From a virus (lineage: Duplodnaviria > Heunggongvirae > Uroviricota > Caudoviricetes), in IMG/VR virus record IMGVR_UViG_2651869725_000017: 18,249 nucleotides of DNA, one strand, 5' to 3'. Position numbers and translations under genes: made by a program. The notes beneath the pieces were generated by a model. That model had not been told where the DNA came from. It was given only the letters and a program-made list of their open reading frames with translations, and searched no databases. Within the stretch, counting starts at the first letter, position 1, and each line of letters opens with the position of its first letter. This document shows positions 1 to 3,549 of this stretch, piece after piece.

Positions 1-384
1 CCCATCAAAGGTGTTGAGCCACCAGAGTGGTTCGCTGAAGAAGATCTCCCTCTCGCCACGATCATGTGGCAACTGACAACCAAAGAACTCTGCGGTCATG
101 GCCTGTTGTGCGTGACTGACCTCGCGGTGCTTGAGCGGTGGTGCGTGGCCTATGAGTTCTGGCGACGTGCCGTGAAAAATATTGCCATACAGGGCAACAC
201 CATCACCGGTGCAATGGGCGGCAGGGTCAAAAATCCGGAGCTGACCGCCAAAAAAGAACAGGAGTCCGAGATGAGCAGCACGGGGGCAATGCTCGGACTC
301 GACCCCAGCAGCCGCCAGCGTCTGATTGGCCTGGCGGGGCAGAAGAAAGCTACTAACCCGTTTCTGAAAATTATCGAATCATGA
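1..384 (+). CDS. Terminase small subunit (P27-like), 5'-truncated by window edge
   Basis: The frame of the 64..384 ORF stays open back to position 1, so the gene starts upstream. Its stop overlaps the terminase large start (ATGA at 381-384). Family call from recalled similarity of the C-terminal region. Confidence 0.7.
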
Positions 385-2114
385 GCCGGAAATCTTACCC
401 CAACGTAAATGCTGCCAATCAGTATGCCCGGGATGTCGTTCGCGGAAAGATTGTGGCCTGCCAGTTTGTGATTCAGGCCTGCCAGCGCCATCTTGATGAC
501 CTGATGGCGGAAAAAAGTAAGTCGTTTCGTTACCGCTTCGACAAGGACCTGGCTGAACGGGCCGCCAAATTTATTCAGCTGTTGCCGCACACCAAGGGTG
601 AGTGGGCATTCAAGAGGATGCCCATCACGCTGGAGCCGTGGCAGCTCTTTGTGATCTGCTGTGCGTTTGGCTGGGTCAATAAAGGCTCCCGGCTGCGCCG
701 CTTCCGGGAGGTGTATACCGAAATCCCCCGTAAGAACGGCAAATCGGCAATCTCTGCCGGTGTCGCCCTGTATTGTTTTGCCTGTGATAACGAGTTTGGC
801 GCGGAAGTGTATTCCGGTGCCACGACAGAGAAACAGGCATGGGAAGTCTTTCGTCCGGCAAGACTGATGTGTAAACGCACACCCATGCTGACGGAAGCGT
901 TCGGGATTGAGGTTAACGCCTCAAACATGAACCGTCCGGAGGATGGTGCGCGTTTTGAACCGCTGATCGGTAACCCCGGTGATGGTTCATCACCCCACTG
1001 TGCGGTGGTGGATGAATATCACGAGCACGCCACAGATGCGCTTTACACCACGATGCTTACCGGGATGGGGGCGCGACGTCAGCCACTGATGTGGGCTATC
1101 ACTACCGCCGGGTACAACATTGAGGGGCCGTGCTACGACAAACGGCGGGAAGTCATCGAGATGCTCAACGGCTCGGTGCCTAACGATGAACTGTTCGGGA
1201 TCATCTATACCGTTGATGAAGGTGACGACTGGACCGACCCGCAGGTGCTGGAAAAAGCCAATCCAAATATTGGCGTGTCGGTTTATCGCGAATTTTTGTT
1301 AAGTCAGCAGCAGCGTGCGAAAAATAACGCCCGTCTGGCAAACGTCTTTAAAACAAAACACCTCAATATCTGGGTGTCGGCACGTTCGGCGTATTTCAAC
1401 CTGGTGAGCTGGCAGAGCTGCGAGGATAAATCACTGACCCTTGAGCAGTTCGAGGGGCAGCCGTGCATTCTGGCCTTTGATCTGGCGCGTAAGCTGGATA
1501 TGAACAGCATGGCGCGACTTTATACCCGCGAGATTGACGGTAAAACGCATTACTACAGTGTGGCCCCGCGCTTCTGGGTACCGTATGACACGGTGTACAG
1601 CGTCGAGAAAAATGAAGATAGACGGACAGCCGAACGCTTTCAGAAATGGGTGGAAATGGGCGTCCTGACCGTTACCGATGGTGCAGAGGTGGATTATCGC
1701 TACATCCTCGAGGAGGCCAAAGCAGCGAACAAAATCAGCCCGGTCAGTGAGTCACCCATCGACCCCTTCGGGGCGACCGGGTTGTCACATGACCTTGCTG
1801 ATGAAGACCTGAACCCCATCACTATCATTCAGAACTACACCAACATGTCCGACCCGATGAAAGAGCTGGAAGCGGCAATTGAATCGGGGCGCTTTCATCA
1901 TGATGGCAATCCCATCATGACCTGGTGTATCGGCAACGTGGTCGGCAAAACCATTCCGGGTAACGATGATGTGGTGAAGCCCGTCAAAGAGCAGGCGGAA
2001 AACAAAATCGATGGTGCAGTTGCGCTGATTATGGCGGTTGGCAGAGCCATGCTGTACGAGAAAGAAGACACGTTGTCTGACCACATTGAGTCCTATGGGA
2101 TCCGCTCGCTTTAA
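381..2114 (+). CDS. Terminase large subunit (ATPase/nuclease)
   Basis: 577-aa ORF directly after the small subunit with ATGA overlap; size and position typical of a phage large terminase. Family recognised from the translation, not searched. Confidence 0.9.
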
Positions 2115-2125
2115 CTGAGGTAATT

Positions 2126-2308
2126 ATGATCATGCTGATTCTCGCGCCTCTGGTGGGCGTGCTGGGGGCGCTTTTGCTGGCGTATGGTGCCTGGCTGATT
2201 TATCCCCCGGCGGGGTTTGTTGTTGCCGGGGCGTTGTGCCTGTTCTGGTCGTGGCTGGTGGCGCGATATCTTGACCGTACACAGTCGTCTGTCGGCGGAG
2301 GTAAATAG
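2126..2308 (+). CDS. Small membrane protein, 60 aa, two predicted transmembrane helices, unknown function
   Basis: GAGG at 2117-2120 with 5-nt spacer to ATG 2126. Two hydrophobic stretches (about residues 3-22 and 30-46) and a charged C-terminus. Stop TAG 2306-2308 overlaps the portal GTG 2308 (TAGTG). Confidence 0.5.
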
Positions 2309-3549
2309 TGTTCTTTTCGGGATTATTTCAACGAAAAAGTGACGCACCGATGACCACGCCAGCAGAGCTGGCGGATGCTATCGGGTTGTCCTACGACACC
2401 TATACCGGAAAGCAGATCAGCAGCCAGCGGGCCATGCGACTGACGGCGGTTTTTTCCTGTGTCAGGGTGCTGGCGGAGTCGGTCGGGATGTTGCCCTGCA
2501 ACCTGTATCACTTGAACGGCAGCCTGAAGCAGAGAGCCACTGGCGAACGTCTGCATAAGCTGATCTCCACGCATCCCAATGGCTATATGACGCCGCAGGA
2601 GTTCTGGGAGCTGGTGGTCACCTGTCTGTGCCTGCGGGGAAACTTTTACGCCTACAAAGTGAAAGCATTTGGCGAAGTGGCTGAACTGCTGCCCGTCGAT
2701 CCCGGCTGTGTGGTACCGAAGCTTAACAGTAGCTGGGAGCCGGTCTATCAGGTCACATTCCCGGATGGCTCCACGGATGTACTGAGCCAGGAGGATATCT
2801 GGCATGTGCGCACGCTGACGCTGGACGGACTGGTGGGGCTGAATCCCATCGCCTATGCCCGCGAGGCAATATCGCTGGCGGCAGCGACCGAAGAGCACGG
2901 GGCCAGACTGTTCAGCAATGGCGCGGTGACGTCGGGTGTGTTGCGTACAGAGCAGACGCTGTCAGATCAGGCTTATGAGCGCCTGAAGAAAGATTTTGAG
3001 GAGCGTCACACCGGGCTTGGCAATGCTCACCGCCCGATGATCCTTGAGATGGGGCTGGACTGGAAGTCGATGGCGCTGAACGCCGAGGACAGCCAGTTCC
3101 TGGAAACCCGCAAGTTTCAGCTTGAAGAAATCTGTCGTCTGTTCCGGGTGCCGTTGCACATGGTGCAGAACACCGATCGCGCCACCTTCAACAATATCGA
3201 AGAGCTGGGGCTGGGATTTATCAATTATTCACTGGTGCCGTATCTGACCCGCATTGAGCAGCGGATCAACACCGGACTGGTACGAAAAAGTAAGCAGGGC
3301 ATTTATTACGCCAAATTTAACGCCGGGGCGTTACTGCGCGGGGATATGAAGTCCCGTTTTGAAGCCTACGCCACCGGGATTAACTGGGGAATTTACTCTC
3401 CCAATGATTGTCGCGACCTGGAAGATATGAATCCGCGTCCCGGTGGGGATGTCTATCTCACACCGATGAACATGACCACGAAACCCTCCGATGGCAGTAA
3501 AGCCGGTAAGCAGAAGGATAACGCCAATGCAGACGAAACAACGTCTTGA
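2308..3549 (+). CDS. Portal protein (HK97 family)
   Basis: 413-aa ORF in the canonical position after the terminase. GTG start at 2308 is preceded by GGAGGT at 2296-2301; an in-frame ATG at 2350 is an alternative start. Family recognised from the translation. Confidence 0.88.
   Translation: MFFSGLFQRKSDAPMTTPAELADAIGLSYDTYTGKQISSQRAMRLTAVFSCVRVLAESVGMLPCNLYHLNGSLKQRATGERLHKLISTHPNGYMTPQEFWELVVTCLCLRGNFYAYKVKAFGEVAELLPVDPGCVVPKLNSSWEPVYQVTFPDGSTDVLSQEDIWHVRTLTLDGLVGLNPIAYAREAISLAAATEEHGARLFSNGAVTSGVLRTEQTLSDQAYERLKKDFEERHTGLGNAHRPMILEMGLDWKSMALNAEDSQFLETRKFQLEEICRLFRVPLHMVQNTDRATFNNIEELGLGFINYSLVPYLTRIEQRINTGLVRKSKQGIYYAKFNAGALLRGDMKSRFEAYATGINWGIYSPNDCRDLEDMNPRPGGDVYLTPMNMTTKPSDGSKAGKQKDNANADETTS

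What the first reader, a model, noticed from the sequence alone, without database searches (positions are those of the whole stretch)
2126..2308. Two-helix membrane mini-protein inserted between terminase and portal, translationally coupled to the portal
The terminase-portal junction in HK97-type head modules is normally direct. Here a 60-codon ORF with its own GAGG ribosome-binding site encodes a protein that is almost entirely two hydrophobic helices plus a short charged tail. Its stop codon overlaps the portal GTG start (TAGTG), so it is expressed with the late operon. A small membrane protein in a packaging module is unexplained; it could be a moron (for example superinfection exclusion or a membrane-acting factor) or a packaging-associated membrane anchor.
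Basis: partly seen in the sequence, partly recalled or inferred. Interest (0 to 1): 0.55.

Follow-up and report, generated by a model that had tools for sequence, protein, structure and literature searches.

The report
Conserved portal-coupled membrane mini-protein YmfR
The 60-codon gene is real and is the already catalogued E. coli prophage protein YmfR, a two-helix membrane hairpin of unknown function that is a widely conserved companion of the phage portal gene rather than a foreign insertion.

Summary
Window 2126..2308 (+) encodes a 60-aa, two-helix hydrophobic protein with its own GAGG ribosome-binding site. Its TAG stop overlaps the portal GTG start (TAGTG).

It is not new. It is 100% identical to E. 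coli K-12 e14 YmfR (b1150, IPR020297) and belongs to PHROG 502 ("membrane protein").

It is not an insertion. A motif scan for the family's hairpin turn (GAW.[IV]Y.PAG[FY]) found 120 viral and 52 genomic loci. Every hit with enough flank, except one chance match, lies between a large terminase and an HK97-type portal. Hosts span alpha-, beta- and gamma-proteobacteria, with a few Firmicutes and Actinobacteria.

- In 66 of 80 non-redundant members the stop overlaps the portal start by one base.
- The protein co-varies with the portal, not the terminase.
- It is under purifying selection.
- It lacks its own promoter, terminator or atypical composition, so a moron is unlikely.
- Non-homologous or barely homologous two-helix analogues occupy the same slot in SfV (unannotated), D3, phi105, phiSM101 and Sfi21 (DUF1056).
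- HK97 itself and about two thirds of a small spread sample lack any such gene.

Function is untested. My best inference, at low confidence, is a membrane-embedded accessory of portal or prohead assembly.

The parts
381..2114 (+). Large terminase subunit (TerL), upstream neighbour; stop TAA 2112-2114
   Evidence: Pfam TerL_ATPase 3.4e-26 and TerL_nuclease 5.3e-34; PHROG 9.
2117..2120 (+). GAGG Shine-Dalgarno for the mini-gene, 5 nt before the ATG
   Evidence: Read from the sequence. GAGG is conserved in all the close alleles tabulated.
2126..2308 (+). ymfR: 60-codon gene for a two-helix inner-membrane hairpin protein
   Evidence: ORF. 100% identical to K-12 YmfR b1150. PHROG 502 at 2.5e-28. 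dN/dS 0.38 in frame against 0.88 and 1.68 out of frame.
2129..2200 (+). Helix 1 (residues 2-25), with a Gly/Ala stripe G11, G14, G21
   Evidence: AF2 helix 2-25. G11, G14 and G21 are invariant among 21 enterobacterial homologues.
2183..2218 (+). Family signature at the hairpin turn: [12 protein letters not shown] (residues 20-31)
   Evidence: Nearly invariant G21, W23, P28, G30 and invariant G35 across 48 diverse members. The motif is visible in most of the 148 profile hits printed.
2204..2284 (+). Helix 2 (residues 27-53), running into the basic/charged tail (R47, D50, R51, K60)
   Evidence: AF2 helix 27-53. In the family the turn is uncharged in 84% of 180 members and the N-terminal segment is net positive on average, +1.2. 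This fits N-in/C-in topology.
2297..2301 (+). GGAGG Shine-Dalgarno of the portal gene, embedded in the last Gly codons of ymfR
   Evidence: Read from the sequence. GGAGGT is conserved in relatives and explains the conserved C-terminal 'GG[EDK]'.
2306..2310 (+). TAGTG stop/start overlap (ymfR stop, portal start)
   Evidence: Read from the sequence. The same 1-nt overlap occurs in 66 of 80 non-redundant family members, and a 4-nt overlap in 7.
2308..3549 (+). HK97-family portal protein, downstream neighbour and evolutionary partner
   Evidence: Pfam Phage_portal 3.7e-108 and TIGR01537 3.3e-77. Partial correlation of mini identity with portal identity is 0.79 controlling for TerL.

Best explanation
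**What it is**

The ORF is ymfR. It encodes a small inner-membrane hairpin protein: two transmembrane helices joined by a tight uncharged YPPAG turn, with both ends predicted to face the cytoplasm. It belongs to the portal end of an HK97-type head-gene module.

**How it is expressed**

It is transcribed with the late head operon. It is translated from its own SD just after TerL. Its stop codon overlaps the portal start, and the portal's SD lies inside its last codons, so ribosomes finishing YmfR are placed to start the portal.

**Shown here**
- The gene is real and under purifying selection.
- Its family is large.
- Its position and stop/start overlap with the portal are conserved across bacterial phyla.
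- It is inherited with the portal rather than with TerL.
- It lacks the hallmarks of a moron.

**Inferred, not shown**

It acts at the membrane as a non-universal accessory of the first step of head assembly. It could hold or concentrate newly made portal subunits, or the late mRNA through co-translational insertion, at the inner membrane. That would favour portal-ring formation and prohead nucleation. In function, not ancestry, this resembles the membrane-bound start of T4 head assembly with gp40 and YidC.

**My probabilities**
- About 0.9 that it is a genuine, portal-linked, late-expressed membrane protein.
- About 0.3 that its job is portal or prohead assembly.
For: - **Identity.** 100% identical to K-12 YmfR. 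PHROG 502 at E=2.5e-28. RefSeq labels it 'protein YmfR', and the junction is found in 1597 of 5426 complete E. coli genomes.
- **Selection.** dN/dS is 0.38 in frame against 0.88 and 1.68 out of frame. In a second set it is 0.28 for the hairpin, 0.13 for the portal N-terminal part and 0.07 for the TerL C-terminal part.
- **Family.** 382 representatives at E<=1e-3; the best 150 listed are all 26-122 aa and most share D..G.AGA.L.SYGAW.[IV]Y.PAG[FY]IV.G.
- **Synteny.** All 120 viral loci carrying the motif have TerL just upstream and/or an HK97 portal just downstream, wherever flank exists. Of the 52 hits among species-representative genomes, 50 have an HK97 portal immediately downstream and most also have TerL upstream; one locus is too short to judge and one is a chance match.
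- **Coupling.** The distance from mini stop to portal start is -1 nt in 66, -4 in 7 and 0 to +3 in 5 of 80 non-redundant members. The TerL stop overlaps the mini start (ATGA) in 19.
- **Linkage.** Partial correlation of mini with portal given TerL is 0.79; mini with TerL given portal is 0.04. There are 58 pairs with the same mini and portal but a different TerL, and 0 of the converse.
- **Mosaic examples.** phi467 has a different TerL with the same mini and portal. SfV has the same TerL with a different mini and portal. The SfI paper notes that orf3-orf7 travel together (PMC3636060).
- **Not a moron.** No promoter-like site within about 500 nt upstream and no terminator after the gene. GC is 0.556 against 0.51-0.61 in the flanks.
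- **Slot filled in other lineages.** SfV and Ralstonia Dina (PHROG 7105), D3 orf3 (PHROG 4810), phi105 ORF24, phiSM101, and Sfi21 orf59c (DUF1056).
- **Precedent for membrane-bound portal assembly.** T4 gp20 with gp40 and YidC (PMC9958956).
- **Expression.** e14 ymfR mRNA rises with the other e14 genes under an SOS-inducing drug, log2FC 4.52 (PMC10012262).
Against: - No experiment bears on function. The papers in the held library that name ymfR (14 hits, some of them unrelated spellings) only list it among e14 genes.
- HK97 itself and 13 of 18 phages taken from an even spread of portal homologues have no two-helix ORF at the junction. It therefore cannot be a core assembly component.
- The best-conserved part is the membrane-embedded hairpin and its outward-facing turn. 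The cytoplasmic tails, which would have to touch the portal, vary in length and sequence.
- Selection is weaker than on TerL or the portal.
- The co-variation pairs are not phylogenetically independent and may reflect only a few recombination events.
- There is no homology to T4 gp40 or to any characterised protein: Pfam, NCBIfam, PADLOC, PDB and BFVD all returned nothing meaningful.
Confidence: 0.4

Rival explanations
1. A late-expressed membrane effector aimed at the host or at other phages, rather than at assembly. Examples are superinfection exclusion, membrane depolarisation, or blocking a host membrane factor. On this view it merely rides in the head operon.
For: - PHROG files family 502 under 'moron, auxiliary metabolic gene and host takeover'.
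- The most conserved part is the intramembrane hairpin and its outward turn, as expected for a protein that acts within the membrane.
- It is dispensable in many HK97-type modules.
- Small membrane proteins often mediate exclusion (general knowledge).
Against: - No own promoter or terminator and no compositional signature.
- An accessory gene would not be expected to keep one exact position and a 1-nt overlap with the portal start across alpha-, beta- and gamma-proteobacteria and Firmicutes.
- It co-varies with the portal.
- No PADLOC match.
- In e14 its mRNA follows prophage induction and is not reported as constitutive.
Confidence: 0.25
2. A holin-like or antiholin-like lysis-timing protein encoded outside the lysis cassette.
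For: - The architecture matches class II holins and pinholins: about 60 aa, two transmembrane helices, predicted N-in/C-in, basic C-tail, Gly/Ala/Ser stripes on both helices.
- It is expressed late.
- This allele starts Met-Ile-Met, which resembles a dual-start motif.
Against: - The prophage already has two holin-family genes, a GH19 endolysin and an Rz1-like gene in a cassette upstream of the terminase genes.
- No holin family is matched in Pfam or PHROGs.
- The Met-x-Met start is not conserved; other alleles start MFL or MIL.
- Strict linkage to the portal has no rationale for a lysis gene.
Confidence: 0.1
3. Mainly a translational device. On this view the short upstream ORF exists to deliver ribosomes to the weak GTG portal start and set portal dosage, and the peptide itself matters little.
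For: - Near-universal 1-nt or 4-nt stop/start overlap with the portal.
- The portal SD lies inside the ORF's last codons.
- The conserved C-terminal GG[EDK] is explained by that SD.
- The portal starts with GTG in this window.
Against: - Purifying selection acts on the amino-acid sequence, and only in this frame.
- A specific motif (YGAW.IY.PAGF) is kept across phyla.
- Independent lineages keep a two-helix hydrophobic product at this slot even where homology is undetectable. A pure coupler would not need to be a membrane hairpin.
Confidence: 0.07
4. A minor virion or ejection protein, packaged near the portal, that inserts into the recipient's membrane during DNA entry.
For: - It is encoded in the head module next to the portal.
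- It is hydrophobic enough to form or join a membrane channel.
- It accompanies the head module whatever the tail type. SfI is described as a myovirus (PMC3636060) and the window prophage encodes a tail sheath and tube; phiKO2, D3 and Sfi21 are siphoviruses by my own knowledge, which was not tested here.
Against: - A protein that is almost entirely two transmembrane helices should insert co-translationally into the producer cell's membrane rather than be packaged (general knowledge).
- The SfI and SfIV papers I searched report no virion mass-spectrometry data.
- No similarity to known ejection proteins.
Confidence: 0.07
5. A chance ORF that is not translated.
For: It is short and was missed by annotators in SfV, SfIV, PY54 and phiSM101.
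Against: - Frame-specific purifying selection.
- A conserved SD.
- 382 family representatives.
- Conserved synteny and stop/start overlap.
Confidence: 0.01

Closest known systems
E. coli K-12 e14 prophage protein YmfR (b1150, IPR020297; RefSeq WP_000605606.1 'protein YmfR'); PHROG 502 'membrane protein'
   Same: Identical sequence, 60 of 60 residues. Same neighbours: in K-12 the terminase remnant aaaE/ymfN lies upstream and the portal remnant beeE downstream. PHROG 502 at E=2.5e-28.
   Different: Nothing differs in the protein. In K-12 the flanking terminase and portal genes are truncated; here both are intact.
Annotated homologues in cultured phages: P27 and SfII 'putative integral membrane protein', ST64B Sb3, phiKO2 gp3
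   Same: Same family, length, position and overlap with the portal.
   Different: 45-97% identity. phiKO2 carries it on a head module with a different TerL. None has been characterised.
SfV / Ralstonia phage Dina type (PHROG 7105)
   Same: 52-54 aa two-helix hairpin at the same junction. There is a weak but consistent match to the YmfR profile: 25-27 bits with my model, and PHROG 502 at E about 1e-6.
   Different: The turn motif differs (GV.LQFG..PALI). It accompanies a different portal lineage. It is unannotated in SfV.
Pseudomonas phage D3 orf3 (PHROG 4810) and Clostridium phage phiSM101 unannotated ORF
   Same: 54-59 aa, two hydrophobic helices plus a basic tail, between TerL and the portal. 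In D3 the start overlaps the TerL stop.
   Different: No detectable sequence similarity to the YmfR profile (-0.4 and 3.6 bits). These are analogues or relatives diverged beyond detection.
Pfam DUF1056 (Streptococcus phage Sfi21 orf59c; PHROG 1142)
   Same: 59 aa, two hydrophobic segments, encoded between TerL and an HK97-type portal in a Gram-positive host.
   Different: No match between YmfR and DUF1056 in either direction. There is an 18-nt gap to the portal start rather than an overlap.
T4 gp40 with host YidC: membrane-bound initiation of portal (gp20) assembly
   Same: A phage-encoded factor, described as a chaperone, on which assembly of a portal ring attached to the inner membrane depends (PMC9958956). 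This is the functional model I infer for YmfR.
   Different: No sequence relationship was found. T4 gene 40 is not adjacent to gene 20 (my knowledge). A role for YmfR in assembly is untested.
Lambda gpW (head-tail joining protein), the label given to YmfR homologues in some GenBank records
   Same: A small gene between the large terminase (A) and the portal (B) (my knowledge of lambda; labels).
   Different: By my own knowledge gpW is a soluble protein that joins filled heads to tails. YmfR is a transmembrane hairpin and matches no Pfam family at all. The label is a positional misannotation.
Class II holins / pinholins (e.g. phage 21 S21)
   Same: Size, two transmembrane helices, predicted N-in/C-in topology, charged C-tail, small-residue stripes.
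   Different: No homology. It is not in the lysis cassette, which is complete elsewhere in the prophage. It is tied to the portal instead.

Membership tests
YmfR family (IPR020297 / PHROG 502) | Significant match to the family profile | tested here: met
   PHROG 502 at E=2.5e-28, covering residues 1-55 against profile positions 3-57 of 58. 100% identical to K-12 b1150, which RefSeq describes as an IPR020297 domain protein.
YmfR family (IPR020297 / PHROG 502) | Two-helix hairpin with the turn signature YGAW.[IV]Y.PAG[FY] | tested here: met
   Residues 20-31 are [13 protein letters not shown]21, W23, P28, G30 and G35 are invariant or nearly so across 48 diverse members. The AF2 model is a hairpin.
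YmfR family (IPR020297 / PHROG 502) | Encoded between TerL and an HK97-type portal, with the stop overlapping the portal start | tested here: met
   Window: TerL 381..2114, ymfR 2126..2308, portal 2308..3549. The family shows the same arrangement.
Moron (independently transcribed accessory gene in a late operon) | Own promoter upstream and terminator downstream | tested here: not met
   The only +strand promoter-like site is at 1585-1613, inside TerL, scoring 9 of 12. Nothing follows the gene, because its stop overlaps the portal start. The single terminator-like hairpin lies inside the ORF and is not conserved.
Moron (independently transcribed accessory gene in a late operon) | Base composition unlike the flanking genes | tested here: not met
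   GC is 0.556 for 2161-2340, against 0.51 and 0.61 in the adjacent 180-nt windows and 0.48-0.62 across the module.
Moron (independently transcribed accessory gene in a late operon) | Sporadic presence among otherwise similar phages, at variable positions | tested here: inconclusive
   Presence is patchy across HK97-type modules: 5 of 18 in the spread sample, and absent from HK97. But the position is invariant and the gene is inherited with the portal.
Moron (independently transcribed accessory gene in a late operon) | Expressed from the repressed prophage | not testable with these tools
   The only datum is that e14 ymfR mRNA rises 2^4.5-fold together with other e14 genes under an SOS-inducing drug (PMC10012262).
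Class II holin / pinholin | Two transmembrane helices, N-in/C-in, charged C-terminus | tested here: met
   Hydropathy and AF2. Charge distribution across the family. Topology is predicted, not measured.
Class II holin / pinholin | Encoded in the lysis cassette next to the endolysin | tested here: not met
   In a locus that is 100% identical over the 901-nt junction query, two holin-family genes, a GH19 endolysin and an Rz1-like gene lie 3.2-5 kb upstream. ymfR lies between TerL and the portal.
Class II holin / pinholin | Match to a holin family profile | tested here: not met
   Pfam gave only sub-threshold matches to unrelated membrane families. PHROGs gave only 502.
Class II holin / pinholin | Triggered lethal hole formation | not testable with these tools
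   Needs expression experiments.
Lambda gpW (head-tail joining protein W) | Sequence or fold of gpW (a small soluble protein) | tested here: not met
   No gpW or other Pfam family matched at E<=1 beyond weak membrane families. The model is a transmembrane helical hairpin.
Pfam DUF1056 (Sfi21 orf59c type) | Match to PF06341 | tested here: not met
   Sfi21 orf59c matches DUF1056 at 7e-10. YmfR, SfV, Dina, K263, D3 and phiKO2 proteins do not.
Pfam DUF1056 (Sfi21 orf59c type) | Small two-helix protein encoded between TerL and an HK97-type portal | tested here: met
   Shared position and architecture.
T4 gp40-like portal-assembly membrane factor | Required for membrane-bound portal ring assembly | not testable with these tools
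   Needs genetics and biochemistry. This is an analogy drawn from PMC9958956.
T4 gp40-like portal-assembly membrane factor | Sequence homology to gp40 | not tested
   I made no direct comparison with gp40. YmfR hit only PHROG 502 in the PHROG library.
Anti-phage defence proteins (PADLOC) | Match to a defence-system model | tested here: not met
   No match at E<=0.1 for YmfR, the SfV ORF or two distant members.

The most novel reading that the evidence does not exclude
Small two-helix membrane proteins translationally coupled to the portal gene could form a widespread, unrecognised class of head-assembly factors. The class would include YmfR/PHROG 502, PHROG 7105, PHROG 4810 and DUF1056. They would tie portal synthesis or ring formation to the cytoplasmic membrane in many HK97-type phages of both Gram-negative and Gram-positive hosts. 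Membrane-nucleated prohead assembly, so far a T4 peculiarity, would then be common.
Probability: 0.2. Interest if true: 0.7.

Novelty: already known. Interest (0 to 1): 0.4.

Why it matters
The head-gene cluster TerS-TerL-portal-protease-capsid is among the best understood pieces of phage biology. Yet a gene that sits inside it in about 30% of complete E. coli genomes, and in prophages across several phyla, has no assigned role.

Three findings turn an 'odd little ORF' into a concrete, cheap-to-test hypothesis about where and how HK97-type heads start to assemble:
- the gene is fixed to the portal start;
- it is inherited with the portal;
- it is mirrored by look-alike hairpin proteins in unrelated lineages.

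The work also corrects annotation. The ORF is unannotated in SfV, SfIV, PY54 and phiSM101. It is mislabelled 'head-tail joining protein W' in some records. PHROGs files it as a moron.

If the gene proves dispensable and unrelated to assembly, the result is simply that this finding is an ordinary, already catalogued hypothetical protein.

Tried and rejected
1. **Profile libraries.** Pfam, NCBIfam and PADLOC scans of YmfR and of 48 family members gave nothing above threshold.
2. **Solved structures.** A PDB sequence-profile search gave only noise, best E=0.027 to Lgt.
3. **Fold search.** Foldseek of the AF2 model against BFVD gave no hit at E<=0.001. The best matches were uncharacterised phage proteins of about 55 aa. 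I ran no further fold searches, because a 60-residue helical hairpin carries too little fold information.
4. **Alignment-based locus search.** I replaced it with a degenerate DNA motif.
5. **Portal-based locus search.** The search for related loci with the window portal returned only near-identical E. coli prophages, so it was useless for diversity.
6. **tblastn of YmfR against phages.** The low-complexity filter masked residues 1-26. The 41 records found are therefore a lower bound.
7. **Terminator inside the ORF.** SfII annotates one, and a scan finds it at window 2144-2171. I rejected it as a conserved element because close alleles fold differently.
8. **Alternative portal start at ATG 2350.** Rejected: it is GTG in most relatives, while position 2308 is ATG in diverged relatives.
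9. **Hydrophobic N-terminus of the portal.** I asked whether portals with a mini-protein have a distinctive motif (MFFxGLF, MxGLFG). They do not: portals without a mini-protein (Javan261, Lilbooboo, RcapNL) have similar starts.
10. **Literature.** I searched for ymfR, phrog_502, DUF1056, 'small membrane protein' with terminase and portal, and 'terminase and portal' with transmembrane. I found no functional study. The phiKO2 genome paper is not in the held library.
11. **Opposite-strand ORF 2111..2347 and the two other + frames.** Rejected on dN/dS.
Full report
**1. The observation**

Window 2126..2308 (+) is an ATG-initiated ORF of 60 codons. It lies between a large terminase gene (381..2114) and an HK97-family portal gene (2308..3549).
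- A GAGG lies 5 nt before its ATG.
- Its TAG stop shares its last base with the portal's GTG (TAGTG).
- A GGAGG for the portal sits in its last Gly codons.

The product, [60 protein letters not shown], has GRAVY +1.22. AlphaFold2 with a 48-sequence alignment models it as two helices (2-25 and 27-53) at mean pLDDT 80.6.

**2. It is a real gene**

Among 45 distinct nucleotide alleles from related loci, dN/dS is 0.38 in the ORF's frame and 0.88 and 1.68 in the other two frames. In a second set, dN/dS is:
- 0.28 for the hairpin (codons 1-46);
- 0.38 for the tail;
- 0.13 for the first 200 portal codons;
- 0.07 for the last 200 TerL codons.

Selection is therefore purifying but looser than on its neighbours. 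The SD is conserved. The portal start at 2308 is confirmed by diverged relatives that carry ATG at exactly that base (TAATG, TGATG). The downstream ATG at 2350 is GTG in most relatives.

**3. It is already catalogued**

- The protein is 100% identical to E. coli K-12 YmfR (b1150, 'IPR020297 domain-containing protein'). In K-12 it sits in the cryptic prophage e14 between the terminase remnant and the portal remnant beeE.
- RefSeq labels it 'protein YmfR'. The 901-nt junction is found in 1597 of 5426 complete E. coli genomes.
- It matches PHROG 502 'membrane protein' at 2.5e-28.
- Phages SfII, SfI, ST64B (Sb3), P27 and phiKO2 (gp3) annotate the homologue as a putative membrane protein.
- No Pfam, NCBIfam, PADLOC or PDB entry matches it.
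- The papers in the held library that name ymfR only list it among e14 genes. One shows its mRNA rising with the rest of e14 under an SOS-inducing drug.

**4. The family is large and has a sharp signature**

I built a profile from 21 enterobacterial homologues and searched 1.84 billion cluster representatives. It found 382 proteins at E<=1e-3. The best 150 listed are all 26-122 aa, and most are 45-80 aa. Printed out, most share D..G.AGA.L.SYGAW.[IV]Y.PAG[FY]IV.G, meaning two helices around a short uncharged turn.

In 180 members:
- the turn is uncharged in 84%;
- the N-terminal segment averages +1.2 net charge;
- helix 2 is usually followed at once by Arg or Lys, judged by eye from the printed sequences.

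This fits both ends in the cytoplasm and the turn at the outer face. A few members are tandem duplications of the hairpin. The conserved C-terminal GG[EDK] of the enterobacterial proteins is explained by the embedded portal SD.

**5. Position is invariant**

I scanned public collections with a degenerate DNA pattern for GAW.[IV]Y.PAG[FY].
- All 120 viral-contig hits fall in small ORFs. TerL ends just upstream and/or an HK97-type portal starts just downstream, wherever the contig extends far enough.
- Among one-genome-per-species bacterial contigs there were 52 hits. Fifty have an HK97 portal immediately downstream, and most also have TerL upstream.
- One further locus is too short to judge. 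One, in a Binatia MAG, is a chance match inside a 224-aa frame. That agrees with my rough estimate of about one chance match.

Hosts are alpha-, beta- and gamma-proteobacteria, plus Ruminococcaceae, a Mycobacterium MAG and a Solirubrobacteraceae MAG.

In 80 non-redundant members:
- the mini stop overlaps the portal start by 1 nt in 66 and by 4 nt in 7;
- it lies 0-3 nt away in 5;
- the TerL stop overlaps the mini start (ATGA) in 19 and lies 8-12 nt before it in 47.

**6. It belongs to the portal, not to TerL**

Across 2080 pairs of loci, mini identity tracks portal identity (partial r 0.79 given TerL) and not TerL identity (partial r 0.04 given portal). There are 58 pairs with the same mini and portal but an unrelated TerL, and none of the converse. 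These pairs are not independent and may reflect few recombination events.

Concrete cases:
- phi467 and vB_EcoM-606R7 join a different terminase to the same mini and portal.
- SfV keeps this window's TerL up to about position 2033 and then switches to a different mini and portal.
- The SfI genome paper independently notes that orf3-orf7 group with e14 and not with SfV (PMC3636060).

**7. The slot is filled by look-alikes in other lineages, but not in all**

| Phage | ORF at the TerL-portal junction | Relation to the YmfR profile |
|---|---|---|
| SfV | Unannotated 53-aa two-helix ORF (L002 2289..2450), ATGA overlap with TerL | 25 bits; PHROG 7105 |
| Ralstonia phage Dina | 54-aa two-helix ORF | 27 bits; PHROG 7105 |
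| Vibrio phage K263 | 67-aa two-helix ORF | 15 bits |
| Bacillus phi105 | ORF24 | 20 bits |
| Pseudomonas D3 | orf3, two-helix plus basic tail | No detectable similarity; PHROG 4810 |
| Clostridium phiSM101 | Unannotated 59-aa two-helix ORF plus basic tail | No detectable similarity |
| Streptococcus Sfi21 | orf59c, two hydrophobic segments | No detectable similarity; Pfam DUF1056 / PHROG 1142 |

I took 18 phages from an even spread of the 2059 phage records that hold a homologue of this portal.
- Five have such an ORF: K263, phiKO2, Dina, phiSM101 and phi105.
- Thirteen do not: phi2, RcapNL, Javan261, fLi-Aba03, Lilbooboo, Carmel_SA, BIB9, NatCom_11578, PC10, ENT39118, VarioGold, Mcat3 and BR52a.
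- HK97 itself also has a direct junction.

The gene is accessory, not core.

**8. Not a moron**

- There is no sigma-70-like site within about 500 nt upstream.
- No terminator follows the gene.
- GC is ordinary.
- The terminator that SfII annotates inside the ORF (window 2144-2171) is not conserved in close alleles.
- The prophage has a complete lysis cassette upstream of the terminase genes: two holin-family genes, a GH19 endolysin and an Rz1-like gene. A lysis role is therefore not needed.

**9. Mechanism**

*Shown.* This is a selected, membrane-type mini-protein whose translation ends on the portal start. It is fixed to that position across phyla and inherited with the portal.

*Inferred.* It is inserted co-translationally into the inner membrane as an N-in/C-in hairpin. 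Gly/Ala/Ser stripes on both helices (G11, G14, G21; G30, A34, C38, S42) suggest tight helix packing and possibly oligomers, and the tandem-duplicated members are consistent with that.

*My best guess (about 0.3).* It is an accessory of the first step of head assembly. It would keep portal synthesis or ring formation at the membrane, either by contact or simply by tethering the late mRNA through its own insertion. The precedent is T4, where the gp20 portal initiator assembles on the inner membrane with gp40 and YidC (PMC9958956).

*Weaknesses.* The gene is absent from many HK97-type phages. Its cytoplasmic tails vary. Its best-conserved part is inside the membrane, which fits equally well a protein that acts on a membrane target.

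*Rivals.*
- A late membrane effector such as an exclusion or host-directed factor (0.25).
- A holin-like timing factor (0.1).
- A pure translational coupler (0.07).
- A virion or ejection protein (0.07).
- A chance ORF (0.01).

**10. Verdict**

The feature is real and correctly described, but already known as an uncharacterised protein (YmfR, IPR020297, PHROG 502). The 'inserted moron' reading is not supported.

What I add is the evidence for strict, cross-phylum coupling to the portal gene, and the existence of analogous hairpin proteins in the same slot in other lineages. That makes an assembly-related role worth a simple genetic test.

Interest is moderate (0.4). It is ordinary as a sequence feature, but it points to a small open question inside a very well-studied gene module.

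Noticed in passing
L002 (SfV, U82619.2) 2289..2450; also NC_003444: SfV has an unannotated 53-aa two-helix ORF between TerL and the portal. The annotated portal start (GTG 2392) overlaps it. GTG 2440 gives MLLDALFRSKS, which aligns with the Dina portal start MIFDRLFESRS, so the SfV portal start is probably annotated too far upstream.
   Followed up: partly
SfIV KC814930 2382..2483; PY54 AJ564013 2382..2468; L272 (phiSM101) 2014..2193: Homologous or analogous mini-ORFs at the TerL-portal junction carry no annotation in these records.
   Followed up: partly
ON470603.1, ON470584.1, ON470580.1, PQ793804.1: The YmfR homologue is labelled 'head-tail joining protein W'. It shares only its position with lambda gpW, so this is a misannotation.
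   Followed up: yes
window 2144..2171 (+), = SfII 'terminator' 2370..2419: A 12-bp GC-rich hairpin followed by TTTTG lies inside the ORF. The long stem is not conserved in close alleles. A shorter stem (about 2143-2161) changes from CGCGCC/GGCGTG to CACTCC/GGAGTG in other alleles, which looks compensatory.
   Followed up: partly
L103, L108, L148, L162 (viral contigs): In these E. coli-type loci the TerL gene matches the profile in two pieces separated by about 500 nt. This suggests an insertion in the terminase gene, such as a mobile element, intron or intein.
   Followed up: no
L158, L185, L215, L244, L250 (several are Reyranella genome contigs; L158 and L185 are viral contigs of unnamed host): About 0.4 to 2.3 kb lies between the end of TerL and the mini-gene, although the mini-gene still abuts the portal. 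The TerL/mini boundary therefore tolerates insertions while the mini/portal boundary does not.
   Followed up: no
L271 (Campylobacter phage PC10) 1517..1951: A PemK-like toxin gene sits between TerL and the portal. Mycobacterium phage BIB9 gp3 (L266 1858..2070) and Moraxella phage Mcat3 (L275 2013..2201) have small non-membrane ORFs in the same slot.
   Followed up: no
P0152, P0165, P0173, P0232: These family members of 102-122 aa consist of two tandem copies of the hairpin. This hints that the working unit is at least a dimer of hairpins.
   Followed up: no
OR844959.1 'Enterococcus phage Efm 3-10' (1764 bp): This record is 95% identical to the E. coli prophage TerL-ymfR-portal junction. It is probably a contaminant or a mislabelled fragment.
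   Followed up: no
L170 (viral contig) 579..3273: The open frame that matches the portal profile is about 900 codons long, roughly twice the normal length. It may be a fusion with the downstream head gene.
   Followed up: no
L269 (E. coli E275a) 25910..26356, minus strand: In a prophage identical to the window over the 901-nt junction query, an opposite-strand 'OB-fold protein' gene sits between the tape-measure and DNA-circularisation genes, in a moron-like position. The window itself has no such ORF at the corresponding place, about 11.7-12.2 kb.
   Followed up: partly
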